Shown here: positions 867 to 9,056 of the stretch, in pieces
Layout: the number at the start of each line of letters is the position of its first letter
Position numbering within the stretch: the stretch's first letter is position 1
From: a virus
Taxonomy: Duplodnaviria > Caudoviricetes
Virus record (IMG/VR): IMGVR_UViG_3300037067_019204
Coordinates: 32,001 to 96,000 of that record
Direction: 5' to 3' (one strand)
DNA: 64,000 nucleotides
Translations under genes and position numbers: made by a program
Notes under the pieces: generated by a model
Told to the model about the DNA's origin: nothing
The model's database searches: none
The model's input: the letters and a program-made list of their open reading frames with translations, nothing else

Positions 867-2390
867 TTATGCAATATCAATCCTTATATCATGCTTTTTA
901 CAATATTTGTTGATTATGTGCCGATGATCTTTATTCTCAATACTTGTGTTTCTCTTTGCTCGTAATTGAATTACACGATTTTTTCTAATTTCCATATTGT
1001 ATAGTAATTCCCCACATTTTTTATCATATATGCCCAATAGTATGCATTCTTTAGTTCTATATCTATCTGAATAAGAAGCAATACAATTATGCATCATACT
1101 ACCCCAACTAGCTAAATCAGAGGGCTGGTGTGGAACAGTAAACTTTAATTCATCTATATCTTCTTCATATTTATGGAGATCTTCTATCTCATATGGTTTA
1201 TTCCTATCTTTCATCGTTATATAATTCTGTATTTTTGAAAAAGTATCATGCAAATGTTGTGGAGTAAAACATTTTTTTTCTTGTTTTAGTATTTCCATAT
1301 TTTTAAATTCATTATCTTTTTTTATTGTATGATACATCCTAAGTGTATCATAATTATGAGGATAATTCAAAAATGAATTAGATTTTTGTGTATATCCATA
1401 AGATATATCAGGAGACAATGATTCTCGTTTATCATCATCTCTCATTATAAAATCAGCTAATTTATTTTCTGATAATTCTTTTTTAACATCTTTAGCAAAC
1501 ACTTCAAAATGTTCTGGTAATAAAAATAAATTATTAACATGCTCATTATACTCATTACGAGCATTGTAATAATTAAGAATATGTTTTAAAACAGAGGTTT
1601 TTATATCAAGATTATCAAATTGTTTACAAATTATAGGGAGACGATAAAAATCAATTTTTTTGATTGGAGTATCTAATAAATTTCTAACAATAGATTTTTT
1701 GTATGGTAATTCCATAAAGTTAATTAAATCTTTTACAGTAGAAATTTCCATATCTTTAAATATTTCTCTGTGCTTGTCATATTTTAATGAATACAAAAAA
1801 TCAGAACTAAGTTTAAGAATGGGAAAATGATCATAAACCATATAAGCAAAAAATAAATTAACAGGTAATTCTTCCCCAAAAAGATATTCTGATATAGTTT
1901 TATAAATTCTATAGTATTGTTGTTCAAATAATTTAGCATTAGCACCTAATTTATATTTTGTGGCTTTGTATATAAAAGAAATAGGATTATCTACATCAAG
2001 ATAGTCCCAAAATTTAAAAGTTTCACTATCAGAAGATATAAAAGATTCAGGATCAAAAGAAAGAACAGAATTTTTTTCTTTTTTTTCTAGTTCATCTCCT
2101 TTAAATTTAAAGGAACTATTTTTATGAATAATAGAAGCAGATCTTTTATTATTTTCTTCATGTAATTCTAAAATTACTCTTTCAATTTGATCTGAAGCAG
2201 ATATATAAGATGTTGTATTACAATTAGAACAGGAATATAGTTTACTATTAGGAACTAATACTTCTGGAATAAAAAAAGTTTTTTGGCATTCAGTACAATA
2301 TACTGTACTTCCCAAAGAGCTACGTTTATTTCTATTTAAAATAAATAGTGGGATAACTTCTTTATTAACTGGAATAGATTCTATAAGCAT
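867..2390 (-). CDS. PcfJ-like domain protein with N-terminal zinc ribbon
   Basis: C-terminal LHD...VPHQPSDLASWGSMMHNCIASY...NMEIR...IQLRAKRN pattern of PcfJ domains; CTEC and CSNC near the N-terminus. Confidence 0.7.
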   Translation of the reverse strand: MLIESIPVNKEVIPLFILNRNKRSSLGSTVYCTECQKTFFIPEVLVPNSKLYSCSNCNTTSYISASDQIERVILELHEENNKRSASIIHKNSSFKFKGDELEKKEKNSVLSFDPESFISSDSETFKFWDYLDVDNPISFIYKATKYKLGANAKLFEQQYYRIYKTISEYLFGEELPVNLFFAYMVYDHFPILKLSSDFLYSLKYDKHREIFKDMEISTVKDLINFMELPYKKSIVRNLLDTPIKKIDFYRLPIICKQFDNLDIKTSVLKHILNYYNARNEYNEHVNNLFLLPEHFEVFAKDVKKELSENKLADFIMRDDDKRESLSPDISYGYTQKSNSFLNYPHNYDTLRMYHTIKKDNEFKNMEILKQEKKCFTPQHLHDTFSKIQNYITMKDRNKPYEIEDLHKYEEDIDELKFTVPHQPSDLASWGSMMHNCIASYSDRYRTKECILLGIYDKKCGELLYNMEIRKNRVIQLRAKRNTSIENKDHRHIINKYCKKHDIRIDIA

Positions 2391-2396
2391 GTTAAG

Positions 2397-2825
2397 TTAC
2401 ATCATTTCATTTAATAATTCACGAACCTTCATTAAACTAATACCTAATTGATTTCTACCCACACCATTAATTTTTCCCCAATAATTGTCTACTGGGCTTG
2501 CTTCTTCAAGATAAGAATCTCCAGTAGCAATCAATTGTTCGGCAATATCTTTATTTTGCGTAAATTTGCATACTAACGCAAAAAGCATTATTTTATCTTT
2601 AACTTGATCCCAATCTTTTCTTAAAGCAATAATATTACCATTTTGTCTAGATAACTTAGGTGTAGGACTTTTTCTTATAAATTCATGGTCAGATTCTGTT
2701 TTTGCTTTATATGCTTGATAAAAATGTTCTGAGGTTGGATATAATTTACCATTACATATAATTTCAGATTTATAAAAATTAGACATAAATCCAAATTGCT
2801 CATTTGTTTTATAAAATTTTATCAT
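2397..2825 (-). CDS. NADAR (YbiA-like) family protein
   Basis: FMSNFY, YPTSEHFYQAYK, RKDWDQVK..IM, KFTQN, LIATG, EASPVDNYWG, GRNQLG..LMKVR. Confidence 0.92.
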   Translation of the reverse strand: MIKFYKTNEQFGFMSNFYKSEIICNGKLYPTSEHFYQAYKAKTESDHEFIRKSPTPKLSRQNGNIIALRKDWDQVKDKIMLFALVCKFTQNKDIAEQLIATGDSYLEEASPVDNYWGKINGVGRNQLGISLMKVRELLNEMM

Positions 2826-2943: not shown

Positions 2944-4560
2944 TTATAGTTTTCCCATACTAAATTGACTAATTATTTGTGGTGCGGCACTATCAAATCC
3001 TACTATATCCAATGAATTTGGATCTTGAGGATCTGCTATAGAAAATTCAGACCCAACCATTCCAACAACAATCATTTTAGCATCTTTAATCCTCTGGTTT
3101 CTATACTCATGCAAGGCTTGCATAGGATGCATCTTCCCAAACCAAGTTTCATTATCTGTATATGTAACAAATACATCAAAATCAAGTTTCCTATCTTTTG
3201 CCCATATCATTGGAACAGAGCAATCAGTTCCAGCAAAAGGAAGATTTCTCATTTTTTGAAGAGTTTGTCCCAATGTCATATCTGGAGTTATGTCCAAATT
3301 AACAAAATTTGTAGAAAAACCCATTACTTCATAATTTTGTTCTTTTCTTGCTGTAACCATAGCCATACAAGCACTAGCTTCACGACAAGTTAATATCCCC
3401 TGTGCTCCAGAAATATAACTATTTGTCATTGAACCAGATACATCTAGCCCAAGAAGATAACGTTTTCCTGTAGATTCAACATTTTTAAAACTTAAATAAA
3501 ACATTTCTTCAAGAGCATCCACAATTTTTTGAACAGGAACCCAAGAAAGTTTTCCTTTAATTCCATGACCCATTGAATATGTCTTCATGGCAATCAAGAT
3601 ATTCAAAGGATGCATTCTACTTTTTTCTACATGAGAAAGATCAGTTAATTTTTTTGTAACTAAATTAATCTCATCAAACTTACCTTTTGAAAGAATTTCT
3701 AAAGAGCTTAGTTTTCCGAGATTACGAACCAAAGCTCCTAAAGGCAAATCATCCAAAGCAGAATTCCATACTTTTGCACGATTCTTTAACTCTGTTGGCC
3801 ATGCTTCATGAGGAATCTTATATTCTTTTATAAGCTTGCAAGCATCTTTTTCAGAAGCGTTTTTAAGTTCTTCTACAGCTTTCAAAAGATTAAATCCTTC
3901 AGAAATCTCACCTTTAACTGCATATTTAAACAATGAATTATGCTTATCAGACACAGGTTTTACGTGCGCAGAACGAAGCACATCACGATGTGTCCATTGG
4001 TTATTTGAACCTTCTACAGTACGACCTTGATACTTGATCATTTGATATTCAAGTTTTTCTGGGGACATGCTATACCAATTAGCTATAGCACTACGCACTG
4101 AACGACCCCAACTTCTCATTGAATCCAAGTAATGCACAAACATAAACAAGTGTGTTCCTATACGGCATACTTTAGGAAGTGCTTGAACAATTTCTTTTTT
4201 AACATCAAAATCTTTGCATTGAGTAAACAATACTGCTAACAAATAGATTGCTTGATCATTTTTAGGTGCACGGCCCTCATCAGAAATTTTAACTATTGTT
4301 TCAAGAACACGCTTTGGGTTTTCATTAATACAAGCAATACAGTTTTCTATATTAGCTTTAGTCAAATCATGTTCTGAAACATAATATGTTCCACCCTCTG
4401 AAGAAAGGATAAGAAATCTTTCCAATCTTTTCCATTTGTCAATAATGAAGGTATAACCACCTGCATTATTCATAGCCATTTCTTTTTCACGACCCGGAAT
4501 GGGCTTATATTGAGGTGTTCTCTTGTTATTAATTTGATGTTTTGTGTAATTGATAGCCAT
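2944..4560 (-). CDS. rsr: Ro60/Rsr RNA-binding protein (TROVE + vWA domains)
   Basis: NNAGGYTF...RLERFLILSSEGGTYY, CRIGTHLFMF, KYQGR...WTHRDVLRSAH, ALVRNLGKL, SRMHP; vWA MIDAS LDVSGSM, GTDCSVPM, TDNET, GFDS; AAGGAG RBS at 4568-4573. Confidence 0.96.
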   Translation of the reverse strand: MAINYTKHQINNKRTPQYKPIPGREKEMAMNNAGGYTFIIDKWKRLERFLILSSEGGTYYVSEHDLTKANIENCIACINENPKRVLETIVKISDEGRAPKNDQAIYLLAVLFTQCKDFDVKKEIVQALPKVCRIGTHLFMFVHYLDSMRSWGRSVRSAIANWYSMSPEKLEYQMIKYQGRTVEGSNNQWTHRDVLRSAHVKPVSDKHNSLFKYAVKGEISEGFNLLKAVEELKNASEKDACKLIKEYKIPHEAWPTELKNRAKVWNSALDDLPLGALVRNLGKLSSLEILSKGKFDEINLVTKKLTDLSHVEKSRMHPLNILIAMKTYSMGHGIKGKLSWVPVQKIVDALEEMFYLSFKNVESTGKRYLLGLDVSGSMTNSYISGAQGILTCREASACMAMVTARKEQNYEVMGFSTNFVNLDITPDMTLGQTLQKMRNLPFAGTDCSVPMIWAKDRKLDFDVFVTYTDNETWFGKMHPMQALHEYRNQRIKDAKMIVVGMVGSEFSIADPQDPNSLDIVGFDSAAPQIISQFSMGKL

Positions 4561-4580
4561 AGCTAATCTCCTTTTATAAA

Positions 4581-4649
4581 TTTAGGTCAAGTAGTTGTAA
4601 TGGAATTGCATCACCCAAATGTAGATAACCCATCACGTCCGTACCTAAA
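4581..4649 (-). ncRNA. Y RNA-like stem-loop E
   Basis: 5'-UUUAGGUACGGACGUGAUGGG UUAUC ...CCAUUACAACUACUUGACCUAAA-3'; ends pair; 3' CUUGAC strand as in Y RNAs; immediately upstream of the ro60 RBS. Confidence 0.85.
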
Positions 4650-4655
4650 AACCTA

Positions 4656-4783
4656 TGGCCAAAGAGTTGGACTCGAACCAACGACCCACAGTTTCCAATG
4701 ATAACCCTATTCTCCGTGCATTTCTGCCAAGTTGTTGAAAAGGGAAATACAACTGCTGCTCTACCAACTGAGCTATCTTTGAC
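4656..4783 (-). ncRNA. tRNA-shaped Y RNA D (Ro-binding stem replaces anticodon loop)
   Basis: acceptor GUCAAAGA/UCUUUGGC(CA); D arm GCUC AGUUGGUA GAGC; stem GCAGUU/AACUGU; insert CCCUUUUC AACAA CUUGGCA GAAA UGCACGGA GAAUAGGG UUAUC; T arm GUUGG UUCGAGU CCAAC. Confidence 0.85.
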
Positions 4784-4790
4784 ATGCATA

Positions 4791-4870
4791 TTTGGTAAAT
4801 TTTTTTTGATCAGAAAGTTCTTTTCAGAACAACCAATTTCATGTTGATAACTGATCAAATCCGTACCAAA
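4791..4870 (-). ncRNA. Y RNA-like stem-loop C
   Basis: 5'-UUUGGUACGGAUUUGAUCAG UUAUC ...CUGAUCAAAAAAAAUUUACCAAA-3'. Confidence 0.82.
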
Positions 4871-4873
4871 ATT

Positions 4874-4998
4874 TTCCGTGGGTTGGACTTGAACCAACGA
4901 CCCCTTCCTTACAATGGATAATCCTCTTTCATTCGTACATTACTGTCAAGTGGTGAAAAAGGAACTTTAAGTGCTCTACCAATTGAGCTACCACGGAA
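4874..4998 (-). ncRNA. tRNA-shaped Y RNA B (Ro-binding stem replaces anticodon loop)
   Basis: acceptor UUCCGUGG/CCACGGAA; D arm GCUC AAUUGGUA GAGC; insert UCCUUUUUCA CCA CUUGACA GUAA UGUACGAA UGAAAGAGGA UUAUC; T arm GUUGG UUCAAGU CCAAC. Confidence 0.85.
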
Positions 4999-5007
4999 TA
5001 TATACTA

Positions 5008-5072
5008 CAGGTAAAATTTATACTATTCGGGGGGTATCTCTTGACTTGATAACCGAATAGAATCCGTACCTG
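5008..5072 (-). ncRNA. Y RNA-like stem-loop A
   Basis: 5'-CAGGUACGGAUUCUAUUCGG UUAUC AAGUCAAGAGAUACCCC CCGAAUAGUAUAAAUUUUACCUG-3'. Confidence 0.82.
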
Positions 5073-5080
5073 ATATTTTC

Positions 5081-5109
5081 ATATAATATAAATATTAAAT
5101 ACTTGTCAA
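5081..5109 (-). promoter_or_regulatory. probable promoter of the Y RNA-ro60 operon
   Basis: TTGACA at 5109-5104 followed by AT-rich -10-like sequence (TATTAT/TATATG); spacing imperfect. Confidence 0.5.
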
Positions 5110-5130
5110 CAAAAAAATTATCAATAAAAC

Positions 5131-5165
5131 AAAAAAAGCGGTGGATTTTAAGGCCCACCGCTTTT
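5131..5165 (-). terminator. intrinsic terminator
   Basis: AAAAGCGGTGG-loop-CCACCGCTTTT with U7 on the minus strand. Confidence 0.8.
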
Positions 5166-5284
5166 AATATAAAAATTACGTATATATAAATTCTAACTTC
5201 AACCTGTACGGGAAGCTAGAAATATTCAGGAATTGTATTTAAACTTTCCTGAGTTGTAATGGGTGATGACTTTTTTAAAATCTT
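5131..5284 (-). ncRNA. candidate ~150-nt sRNA
   Basis: bounded by a near-consensus promoter and a terminator; no ATG-initiated ORF on this strand; two internal hairpins. Confidence 0.55.
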
Positions 5285-5290
5285 AATAAG

Positions 5291-5319
5291 ATTATACTAA
5301 TTATTTTTCAAAACGTCAA
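5291..5319 (-). promoter_or_regulatory. sigma70-type promoter
   Basis: TTGACG-17 bp-TATAAT. Confidence 0.75.
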
Positions 5320-7973: not shown

Positions 7974-9056
7974 TTAAGCCCTATACATTGTTAAATGTAT
8001 AATTTTTCCATTAAATTCTACAGCCTCTCCCATTAATCGTTTAGTCTTATTTCTATCTTCATTTTCAGGAAGAATTTGCCTAATTTCAATAACTTTGTAT
8101 TCTTTATTATCAAATAAAGTTTTTTCTTCAAAAGTTGTATTTAATTTCTTTCCAAGGAGGGCTTTTACTTTCTCTGCTTTAAACTCAAAAAGATTAGTAT
8201 CATCTTTTTTCAGATAATTACTACCTTCTTTTTCAACAACATCATTTTTTACAGCTTTCCAAGAATCTGGAAGATCATATACATCTAAACCCTTTATCTC
8301 ATTTTCATAAAGAAAAATAGCACCAATTTGGTTTTCAATAGGTGGTATTTTTTTAAGCATTTTTTGAATCATATCTGACATTTCATCAAGTGTTCCAACA
8401 AGATCATCACAATACAATGATCTTACATTAACATCTCCAAGAGTATCATTTCCTGAAATATCTAAATGAGTATGAGATGCTGAATATATTTCAGCAGGAA
8501 GTACCATACTAGTAGTTGTTATTTCAGGATCATAGAATCTACGAGCTGGATTTCTAAGTATATTTTTGTCAGTGCTTTTTAAGTTTGATGTGGTTGCATA
8601 TTGAGTATTAAAGTTACTAACAGTACTCCAAGTGCGAGACTGACTGGAAAGATCTACATCATAAGGTGCATATCCTCCAAATTTCATCTCAGCTCCCTTT
8701 GAAATACCTTTTGTTTGGTGGATACAACGAACAGAAACTTTTTGACCTCTCCCTGCTCCTATAATGTATCCATGAATTGCAGCTCTTTCTTGGGTTTTAC
8801 CTTTAAAGATTTCACCACGACTAATAAACAGTGGTTTATCTTCATTATTTTTTACATACACAGAATCAACAGCCCCTGTGTCTTCTACTTTTACATCTTG
8901 AGCTTCTGCAAAAGTAATGTAATCTCTTTTCAAGTCACTGTCTCTTTTAACAGGAACAATAACTGAAAGACTTCCTTCATCCAATCTCCAAGCCTCATCG
9001 AGCTGGAATCCATTGGTCTCCTCTACGATAGACTTGATAAAATTTTGTGCTGACAT
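7974..9056 (-). CDS. ARPP-1 (DUF6569)-like domain protein carrying a portal-like peptide
   Basis: VYVKNNEDKPLFISRGEIFKG.TQER...VSVRCIHQ, SSQSRTWS.V, QIGAI, LDVY resemble the ARPP-1 family; internal ILRNPARRFYDPEITTT. Confidence 0.65.
   Translation of the reverse strand: MSAQNFIKSIVEETNGFQLDEAWRLDEGSLSVIVPVKRDSDLKRDYITFAEAQDVKVEDTGAVDSVYVKNNEDKPLFISRGEIFKGKTQERAAIHGYIIGAGRGQKVSVRCIHQTKGISKGAEMKFGGYAPYDVDLSSQSRTWSTVSNFNTQYATTSNLKSTDKNILRNPARRFYDPEITTTSMVLPAEIYSASHTHLDISGNDTLGDVNVRSLYCDDLVGTLDEMSDMIQKMLKKIPPIENQIGAIFLYENEIKGLDVYDLPDSWKAVKNDVVEKEGSNYLKKDDTNLFEFKAEKVKALLGKKLNTTFEEKTLFDNKEYKVIEIRQILPENEDRNKTKRLMGEAVEFNGKIIHLTMYRA

What the first reader, a model, noticed from the sequence alone, without database searches (positions are those of the whole stretch)
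4656..4998. Two tRNA-Y chimeras that look circularly permuted relative to YrlA
Seen: B and D have normal tRNA topology (open acceptor stem at the ends, U8A9, GCUC/GAGC D arm with GG, GUUGG-UUC(G/A)AGU-CCAAC T arm). The anticodon loop is replaced by about 55-60 nt in which the Y 3' strand (CUUGACA / CUUGGCA) comes first, is joined by a GNRA tetraloop (GUAA / GAAA), and is followed by the Y 5' strand (UGUACGAA / UGCACGGA) and UUAUC. Established: in described YrlA RNAs the Ro stem is formed by the 5' and 3' ends and the acceptor-like stem is closed by a loop. Inference: these are the opposite permutation, with a free acceptor end that could receive CCA or be aminoacylated. D has an extra G-1:C73 pair reminiscent of tRNA-His and ends ...GGCCA. 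Possible roles are decoys for host anticodon nucleases or tRNA-modifying toxins, or tethers bringing Ro60 to tRNA machinery.
Basis: partly seen in the sequence, partly recalled or inferred. Interest (0 to 1): 0.88.

Follow-up and report, generated by a model that had tools for sequence, protein, structure and literature searches.

The report
tRNA-shaped Y RNAs beside phage Ro60
A large phage carries, just upstream of its Ro60 gene, two RNA genes built like complete tRNAs in which the anticodon loop is replaced by the hairpin that Y RNAs use to dock Ro60. This is the known bacterial Y RNA "YrlA" with its chain ends moved to the acceptor stem, a widespread layout I did not find described in print.

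Summary
On the minus strand, B (4997-4874) and D (4782-4658) pass Rfam's tRNA threshold. Each carries a 58-62 nt insert in place of the anticodon loop, made of a lower stem, a bulged UUG.../...CGR helix closed by GUAA or GAAA, then UUAUC. They alternate with three simple Y-like hairpins directly upstream of a genuine Ro60 gene (4560-2944).

A covariance model found 80 distinct confident relatives in 41 Ro60 loci from phages, metagenomes and bacterial MAGs. All six helices covary. In five whole MAGs every long hit lies at the rsr locus. A mycobacteriophage YrlA aligns with these RNAs only after in-silico circular permutation. Rfam's YrlA model does not detect B or D.

G-1:C73, the tRNA-His hallmark, occurs in 32 of the 80 relatives (26 of the 47 from phage and metagenome loci) against 3 of 157 ordinary tRNAs in those same loci. 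Ten relatives encode CCA after position 73.

Most likely these are non-decoding Ro60 partner RNAs matured like tRNAs. Processing, Ro60 binding and charging are untested.

Earlier notes of this scan report the same layout on other DNA: cyanobacteria, crAss-like and T4-like phages, and giant viruses.

Novelty: new variant of a known kind.

The parts
5134..5165 (-). Intrinsic terminator that ends the upstream unit. The Y array therefore needs its own start.
   Evidence: 12-bp stem followed by a T run.
5070..5098 (-). Possible promoter TTGACA-15 nt-TATTAT in front of the array.
   Evidence: Read. Not listed by the scan, because the 15-nt spacer is outside its 16-18 range. Inferred only.
5005..5072 (-). 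Simple Y-like hairpin A: GGUACGGA ... UUAUC ... UUUUACC.
   Evidence: -17 kcal/mol, z -2.98.
4874..4997 (-). tRNA-order Y RNA B, 124 nt, with U at -1 and A73.
   Evidence: Rfam tRNA 48.3 bits; R2 126.5 bits; fold.
4933..4949 (-). B: Ro60-type bulged helix UUGACA-GUAA-UGU(A)CGA, capped by a tetraloop.
4917..4963 (-). B: 10-bp lower stem (4963-4954 with 4931-4922) that encloses the Ro-type helix, followed by UUAUC (4921-4917).
   Evidence: All 10 pairs covary in the family.
4791..4870 (-). Simple Y-like hairpin C.
   Evidence: RF01656 (nematode Y-like sbRNA) 25.8 bits, below the gathering score. Fold.
4656..4783 (-). tRNA-order Y RNA D. The core is 4782-4658 (125 nt). G-1 at 4783 lies opposite C73 at 4658, and CA follows at 4657-4656.
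   Evidence: Rfam tRNA 44.2 bits; R2 101.9 bits; flanks.
4714..4730 (-). D: Ro60-type bulged helix UUGGCA-GAAA-UGC(A)CGG.
4581..4649 (-). Simple Y RNA E in the classical order (GGUACGGA ... ACUUGACC). It ends just before the rsr ribosome-binding site.
   Evidence: RF01656 24.7 bits.
2944..4560 (-). rsr, the Ro60 orthologue, 538 aa.
   Evidence: Pfam TROVE 3.5e-35 and vWA_Ro60 1.8e-65. PDB 1YVP 1e-106, 2NVO 8e-109.

Best explanation
B and D are non-decoding partner RNAs (Y RNAs) of the phage Ro60 protein. They are homologous to YrlA but have the chain connectivity of a real tRNA.

The acceptor, D and T arms form a tRNA-like L. The anticodon arm is prolonged by a covarying stem and ends in the bulged UUG/CGR helix that docks Ro60. 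That helix is capped by a loop instead of being formed by the RNA termini.

Inferred steps:
1. The array Y-A, B, Y-C, D, Y-E and rsr is transcribed as one unit.
2. RNase P and 3' trimming cut at the tRNA-like bodies. This also frees the simple Y RNAs, which lie only 3-10 nt away.
3. CCA is added to the 3' ends.
4. Ro60 binds the distal helix. The RNA then gates Ro60 and tethers it to proteins that recognise tRNA elbows or acceptor ends.

D-type members carry the tRNA-His mark G-1:C73, so HisRS is a candidate partner.
For: Shown:
- The tRNA body is present and the anticodon loop is replaced.
- A genuine Ro60 gene lies 20 nt downstream of the array on the same strand.
- Model R2 finds 80 distinct confident members in 41 Ro60 loci.
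- On 26 diverse members, 95% of cells pair against 37-47% in slid controls. Of 35 pairs, 31 show changes on both sides, including 10 of 10 in the lower stem and 5 of 6 in the Ro helix. RNAalifold on its own recovers the acceptor, D, lower, distal Ro and T helices.
- In five whole MAG genomes of 4-12.6 Mb, all 19 hits of 119 nt or more lie in the rsr locus. Every other hit is a 72-74 nt tRNA.
- YrlA aligns with these RNAs only after permutation.
- G-1:C73 occurs in 32 of 80 members against 3 of 157 ordinary tRNAs (Fisher 1.6e-14). CCA is encoded directly after position 73 in 10 of 80 members, against 1.6% expected by chance (p 5e-7).

Established: M. smegmatis YrlA is cut by RNase P and receives CCA in vivo (PMC4201824).
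Against: - There is no RNA-level evidence.
- B and D do not encode CCA. The promoter is weak by consensus.
- D alone does not fold better than shuffles in a thermodynamic fold (z 0.17).
- The motif in B (UACGAAUG) and D (CACGGAG) departs from the published GNCGAAN0-1G.
- The G-1:C73 counts are not phylogenetically independent. They could reflect descent from a tRNA-His ancestor and not present-day use.
Confidence: 0.75

Rival explanations
1. B and D are decoding tRNA genes interrupted by an intron that is spliced out.
For: They pass Rfam's tRNA threshold, and the insert sits in the anticodon arm. The phage has 20 ordinary tRNA genes nearby and none for His, Phe, Arg or Asn in the 161-kb record.
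Against: - The insert is a conserved, covarying structure carrying the Ro-type motif across 41 loci. That is not what a disposable intron looks like.
- At 58-62 nt it is far too short for a group I intron.
- No bulge-helix-bulge splicing enzyme is known in bacteria (Wang et al., 10.1101/312249).
- Removing it at the canonical 37/38 site would leave G at position 33 and a pyrimidine at position 37 in both B and D (read).
- ARAGORN, which allows for introns, calls nothing.
Confidence: 0.03
2. The units are ordinary YrlA genes in tandem, read out of register. The T arm of one copy and the D arm of the next would then form the real RNA.
For: Tandem arrays exist (L011, L185). The Ro motif strands of neighbouring copies are similar. 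Chen et al. warn of the converse artefact with dimeric tRNAs.
Against: - The acceptor strands pair within a unit and not between units. B's 3' strand CCACGGA cannot pair with D's 5' strand UCAAAGA.
- All 7 acceptor pairs covary within units.
- The Ro helix is closed by loops of 3-8 nt in 74 of 80 members.
- RF02553 scores 12 bits or less across the B/D region.
Confidence: 0.02
3. The tRNA bodies act mainly without Ro60. They could be RNase P/Z punctuation that releases the simple Y RNAs, or decoys that soak up host tRNA-targeting nucleases or toxins.
For: Units lie 3-10 nt apart and alternate with simple Y hairpins. Phage tRNA islands are known counter-defence loci (my own knowledge). An Acb2/Tad1-type gene lies near rsr in one relative.
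Against: - Punctuation alone would not need a conserved Ro-type helix inside each tRNA body.
- Many loci have tRNA-order units with no interleaved simple Y (L185 and L193).
- An anticodon-nuclease decoy would be expected to keep an anticodon loop.
- The units are found only at rsr loci.
Confidence: 0.12

Closest known systems
YrlA (Rfam RF02553; Chen et al. 2014, PMC4201824; structure in Wang et al. 2018, 10.1101/312249)
   Same: - Encoded beside rsr on the same strand.
- The D-arm sequence (UAGCUCAG..GGUAGAGC) and the T arm are the same.
- The Ro-type CGA(A/G) strand is followed by a stem and GUUAYC.
- The Ro helix stacks on the anticodon-stem position.
- A permuted YrlA is collinear with B and D.
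   Different: - The chain ends are at the acceptor stem, not at the Ro helix.
- The Ro helix is capped by a loop and the acceptor stem is open.
- The order is D arm then T arm, not T arm then D arm.
- RF02553 does not detect B or D.
[quoted passage not shown]
   Same: It has a 7-bp acceptor stem with a free, CCA-bearing 3' end on a Ro-bound tRNA mimic.
   Different: It is a two-piece RNA made by cutting a closed acceptor hairpin. B and D would be single chains with gene-encoded open ends.
D. radiodurans Yrn1 and metazoan Y RNAs or nematode sbRNAs (RF01656)
   Same: They share the bulged Ro-binding helix with both strands recognisable (…CUUGAC… with …G(U/C)NCGA…) and UUAUC next to it.
   Different: In those RNAs the termini form the helix. 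In Yrn1 the Ro helix takes the acceptor position. None has a complete cloverleaf.
Circularly permuted tRNA genes of red algae and an archaeon (cited in 10.1101/312249), and two-piece permuted tmRNA (my own knowledge)
   Same: They set a precedent that tRNA-like RNAs exist in both gene orders.
   Different: Those are processed back to standard function. Here both orders appear to be final, non-decoding forms.
Bacterial tRNA-His
   Same: D and 31 relatives have an encoded G-1 opposite C73. Some relatives have GUGGCNN acceptor stems and C73-CCA (L193 4695-4819, L185 4844-4968). Two have the GUGU/GCAC D stem seen in tRNA-His genes of these loci.
   Different: There is no anticodon loop and no GUG anticodon. 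Charging is untested.

Membership tests
YrlA (RF02553) | Encoded within a few kb of rsr on the same strand | tested here: met
   B and D lie 98-437 nt upstream of the rsr start on the minus strand.
YrlA (RF02553) | tRNA-like D and T arms with the conserved YrlA sequences | tested here: met
   The D arm matches that of phage Dandelion YrlA and the RF02553 consensus.
YrlA (RF02553) | GNCGAAN0-1G Ro-binding motif | tested here: inconclusive
   B has UACGAAUG and D has CACGGAG. GC-rich relatives have GGGCCGAA. The helix and bulge are conserved, but the first G is not.
YrlA (RF02553) | The 5' and 3' termini form the Ro helix, the acceptor stem is a closed hairpin, and the order is T arm, acceptor, D arm | tested here: not met
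   The Ro helix is closed by GUAA or GAAA, the acceptor is open, and the order is D arm then T arm. Compare for the canonical order.
YrlA (RF02553) | Reaches the Rfam gathering score (69 bits) | tested here: not met
   No RF02553 hit at E<=10 in 4400-5300. The best hit in the own genome is 15.8 bits, at a tRNA-tRNA junction.
YrlA (RF02553) | Bound by Rsr in vivo | not testable with these tools
   Needs a pull-down or a gel-shift assay (EMSA).
tRNA (RF00005) | Acceptor, D and T arms with U8, A14, G18G19 and the UUCRA T loop | tested here: met
   48.3 and 44.2 bits against a gathering score of 29.
tRNA (RF00005) | 5-bp anticodon stem with a 7-nt loop, U33 and purine 37 | tested here: not met
   58-62 nt replace the loop. 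ARAGORN finds none. A hypothetical spliced loop would have G33 and a pyrimidine at 37.
tRNA-His identity set | Encoded G-1 paired with C73 | tested here: met
   Met for D (4783 with 4658) but not for B (U-1, A73). Family-wide, 32 of 80 members against 3 of 157 ordinary tRNAs.
tRNA-His identity set | GUG anticodon, and charging by HisRS | not testable with these tools
   The anticodon is absent by construction. Charging needs an enzyme assay.

The most novel reading that the evidence does not exclude
The G-1:C73 members, D among them, are matured to 8-bp tRNA-His-like acceptor ends, receive CCA and are charged with histidine by HisRS. Ro60 would then ride on an aminoacylated tRNA mimic and couple RNA surveillance to HisRS, EF-Tu or the ribosome.

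Separately, tandem arrays of these tRNA-order RNAs may be the ancestors from which the published, permuted YrlA arose by duplication and trimming.
Probability: 0.15. Interest if true: 0.92.

Novelty: new variant of a known kind. Interest (0 to 1): 0.8.

Why it matters
What the tRNA-like half of bacterial Y RNAs does, and how it arose, are open questions. Chen et al. 2014 and Wang et al. 2018 both leave the partner unknown and speculate about a dimeric-tRNA origin.

A widespread, rsr-exclusive class with true tRNA connectivity bears on both questions:
- It offers a one-piece RNA with a free acceptor end that can be tested directly for RNase P cleavage, CCA addition and charging.
- The strong G-1:C73 enrichment names a concrete candidate partner, HisRS.
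- Tandem arrays give a simple route to YrlA by circular permutation.
- Current models (RF02553, tRNA finders) miss these genes, so Ro60 loci are under-annotated.

Tried and rejected
- **Motif scan.** An exact scan of viral contigs with the capped Ro helix returned only tail-fibre coding sequence (ADLAEMYE), about the number expected by chance.
- **Single-protein locus search.** It found no relatives in viral contigs. An alignment-based search was needed.
- **blastn.** The array has no match among 50,697 cultured phage records. Four cultured phage Ro60 loci (Dandelion, Beuffert, BearBQ, Phosso) have no confident tRNA-order member. Dandelion has canonical YrlA.
- **Contig look-ups.** P0002 (88% identical) was not on record and P0011 returned no DNA. 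The 88% relative was recovered as L094 instead.
- **MAFFT alignment A2.** It put the lower stem out of register, so it was not used for a model. A two-sequence seed with a hand-set structure was iterated instead.
- **U-1:A73 and U-1·G73 as a general eighth pair.** I considered this and dropped it. Ordinary tRNAs in the same loci are pairable at -1:73 in 82 of 157 cases. Only G-1:C73 is specific to the family.
- **Supplementary tables of Chen et al.** They are not held. The two Wolin-lab reviews are not held either.

Full report
**What is there.** The window is part of a 161-kb IMG/VR phage record. On the minus strand the order is as follows.
- A terminator at 5165-5134.
- A possible TTGACA-15-TATTAT promoter at 5098-5070, read. 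The scan did not list it because of the short spacer.
- A simple Y-like hairpin A (5072-5005).
- Element B (4997-4874).
- Hairpin C (4870-4791).
- Element D (4782-4658).
- Hairpin E (4649-4581).
- A ribosome-binding site and a 538-aa ORF (4560-2944).

The ORF is a Ro60 orthologue. Pfam gives TROVE 3.5e-35 and vWA_Ro60 1.8e-65. The PDB search gives 1e-106 to X. laevis Ro60 (1YVP) and 8e-109 to D. radiodurans Rsr (2NVO).

**The observation.** Rfam's tRNA model matches B at 48.3 bits and D at 44.2 bits (gathering score 29) over the whole model. It leaves 62 and 58 nt unaligned inside the anticodon arm. ARAGORN reports no tRNA in the window.

Reading, both elements have:
- a 7-bp acceptor stem, U8 A9 and a GCUC/GAGC D stem with GG in the loop;
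- a GGGUC variable loop and a GUUGG-UUC(A/G)AGU-CCAAC T arm.

Between the short anticodon stem halves lie, in order:
- an A/U-rich junction and a lower stem (10 bp in B);
- a small internal loop;
- the helix UUGACA-GUAA-UGU(A)CGA in B, or UUGGCA-GAAA-UGC(A)CGG in D;
- the returning strand of the lower stem, then UUAUC.

That helix, with its bulged base and the flanking UUAUC, is the Ro-binding signature of Y RNAs. Here the side that normally carries the RNA termini is closed by a tetraloop. D has G at -1 (4783) opposite C73 (4658), followed by CA.

**Conservation.** No cultured phage has similar DNA, and the closest cultured Ro60 proteins are 42% identical or less. Metagenomic relatives of the protein exist.
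- The contig encoding the 68% relative (L011) has a simple Y, two abutting tRNA-order units and another simple Y directly before rsr.
- The 64% relative (L012) has three tRNA-order units.
- The 88% relative (L094) repeats the A-B-C-D-E array.

I built a covariance model from B and its L094 counterpart with a hand-set structure. I searched 163 Ro60 loci from IMG/VR and metagenomes. I then rebuilt the model from the 26 best, all long, hits.

On those 26 sequences (GC 43-67%):
- 95% of cells form standard pairs, against 37-47% when partners are slid;
- 31 of 35 pairs show changes on both sides, and no shuffle reaches the observed values;
- every helix covaries, including the lower stem (10 of 10 pairs) and the Ro helix (5 of 6).

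That alignment was fitted to the model. As an independent check, RNAalifold on the same alignment recovers the acceptor, D, lower, distal Ro and T helices by itself.

**Census and association with rsr.** I searched with the second model and applied strict filters: at least 6 of 7 acceptor pairs, full D and T stems, at least 5 of 6 Ro pairs, at least 7 of 10 lower-stem pairs, and a cap of 14 nt or less. This leaves 80 distinct sequences in 41 loci.
- 47 are in 26 phage or metagenome loci.
- 33 are in 15 loci of MAGs labelled Chloroflexia, Armatimonadota, Polyangiaceae, Anaerolineales, Actinomycetota and Verrucomicrobiota.
- There are up to 8 per locus.

Apart from L182's, which are antisense to rsr, they lie on the rsr strand. 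In five whole MAG genomes (4-12.6 Mb), all 19 hits of 119 nt or more fall inside the rsr locus. Every other hit is an ordinary 72-74-nt tRNA. In the phage's own record only B and D are found.

**Relation to YrlA.** Chen et al. (PMC4201824) define YrlA by a 5' GNCGAAN0-1G motif, a T stem-loop, an acceptor-like stem-loop and a D stem-loop, in that order. Wang et al. [quoted passage not shown]
- I confirmed this order in mycobacteriophage Dandelion and in the RF02553 consensus.
- RF02553 gives no hit at E<=10 over the array and at most 15.8 bits anywhere in the phage record.
- I cut the Dandelion YrlA in its acceptor loop and joined its termini in silico. The permuted sequence aligns end to end with B, D and five relatives (z 3.9 to 11.9 against shuffles). 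The native order scores z -1.2 to 3.1, about 0 for B and D.
- The shared blocks are the D arm, the junction after it, the CGA strand, GGUUAYC, the UUGYAAG-like stretch, AGGUC and the T arm.

B and D are therefore homologues of YrlA with the other connectivity.

I found no paper describing this form. Two reviews and the supplementary tables of Chen et al. were not available. Earlier notes of this scan report the same layout in other genomes and also found no description. I treated those notes as leads only.

**The acceptor end.**
- Among the 80 members, 33 have C73 and 32 of these have G at -1. G-1:C73 occurs in 24 loci.
- Among 157 ordinary-size tRNA hits in the same phage and metagenome loci it occurs 3 times (Fisher p 1.6e-14). 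These counts are not phylogenetically independent, but they span Rsr proteins down to about 40% identity and a wide GC range.
- Some Polyangiaceae-type members have GUGGCNN acceptor stems followed by C73-CCA. Two members carry the GUGU/GCAC D stem typical of the tRNA-His genes found in these loci.
- CCA follows position 73 in 10 of 80 members, where 1.6% is expected by chance (p 5e-7). It does so in 74 of 157 ordinary tRNAs.

These two features are what one expects if the ends are made and used like tRNA ends. They make HisRS a specific candidate partner for D-type members. U-1:A73 in B is not informative, because ordinary tRNAs show it as often.

**Against a decoding tRNA.**
- The insert is conserved and covaries.
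- It is too short for a group I intron, and bacteria lack the archaeal/eukaryal tRNA splicing endonuclease (10.1101/312249).
- Removal at the canonical site would leave G33 and a pyrimidine at 37 in both B and D.

**Against a misread YrlA tandem.**
- Acceptor strands pair and covary within units. B's 3' strand cannot pair with D's 5' strand.
- The Ro helix cap is 3-8 nt in 74 of 80 members.
- The cap sequence is free: it is GNRA in only 13 of 80. It is closure and not a motif.

**Most likely mechanism.**
- Shown: the gene layout, the structure, the homology to YrlA, the exclusive linkage to rsr, and the His-like and CCA features.
- Inferred: co-transcription of the array with rsr. RNase P and 3' processing at the tRNA bodies, which would also liberate the interleaved simple Y RNAs that lie 3-10 nt away. 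CCA addition. Ro60 docking on the capped helix. Use of the tRNA body to tether or gate Ro60 at tRNA-recognising machinery.
- The phage's 20 tRNA genes lie a few kb away. In Salmonella, rsr and the Y RNAs belong to a tRNA-damage-responsive repair operon (PMC7790460). A role in tRNA surveillance during infection is therefore plausible but unproven.

**Verdict.** This is a new variant (the tRNA-order permutation) of a known kind (YrlA-type Y RNA). It is widespread and unannotated by current models. It carries a testable His-like acceptor signature.

Noticed in passing
L012:2346-2480: A Y RNA in the classical order (GGUACGGAG ... CUUGACC termini) carries a T arm (GUCGGUUCGAAUCCGAC) inside it, like YrlB. 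It sits directly before rsr in a locus that also has three tRNA-order units, so both connectivities coexist in one locus.
   Followed up: partly
window 4581-4651, 4790-4873; L012:301-366: The simple Y hairpins match the nematode Y-like sbRNA family RF01656 at 24.7 and 25.8 bits (gathering score 38). The L012 copy reaches the gathering score at 38.6 bits.
   Followed up: partly
G000:C1:2684-31223 (upstream of the window): ARAGORN finds 20 tRNA genes in the 161-kb phage record and none for His, Phe, Arg or Asn. The record is estimated to be 65% complete.
   Followed up: no
L190:1758-1940, L220:1241-1421, L179:1393-1574, L243:1797-1984: Armatimonadota-type members carry 40-90 nt extra structured sequence in place of the short cap of the Ro helix. 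This is a further variant of the module.
   Followed up: no
L120:2399-2519, L074:2005-2123: Two tRNA-order units have a GUGU/GCAC D stem instead of GCUC/GAGC. It matches the D stem of the tRNA-His genes that ARAGORN finds in many Ro60 loci (30 tRNA-His among roughly 700 tRNAs).
   Followed up: partly
contig of P0011 (no DNA returned), about 1.3-1.7 kb upstream of rsr: A gene with the Acb2/Tad1 hairpin domain (anti-CBASS/Thoeris sponge family) lies near rsr in a relative whose Rsr is 62% identical.
   Followed up: no
G000:C1:31119-31177: The best RF02553 (YrlA) hit in the phage is a 15.8-bit match across the tRNA-Lys/tRNA-Tyr junction. This is the dimeric-tRNA artefact that Chen et al. warn about.
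   Followed up: yes
window 4574-4897 (-): A 107-codon TTG-start ORF overlaps units B to E. It is most likely spurious, because the region is filled by conserved RNA structures.
   Followed up: no
window 867-2825 (-), 7974-9056 (-): NADAR and PcfJ-domain genes follow rsr on the same strand. An ARPP-1-domain gene lies about 3.4 kb upstream of the rsr start.
   Followed up: no
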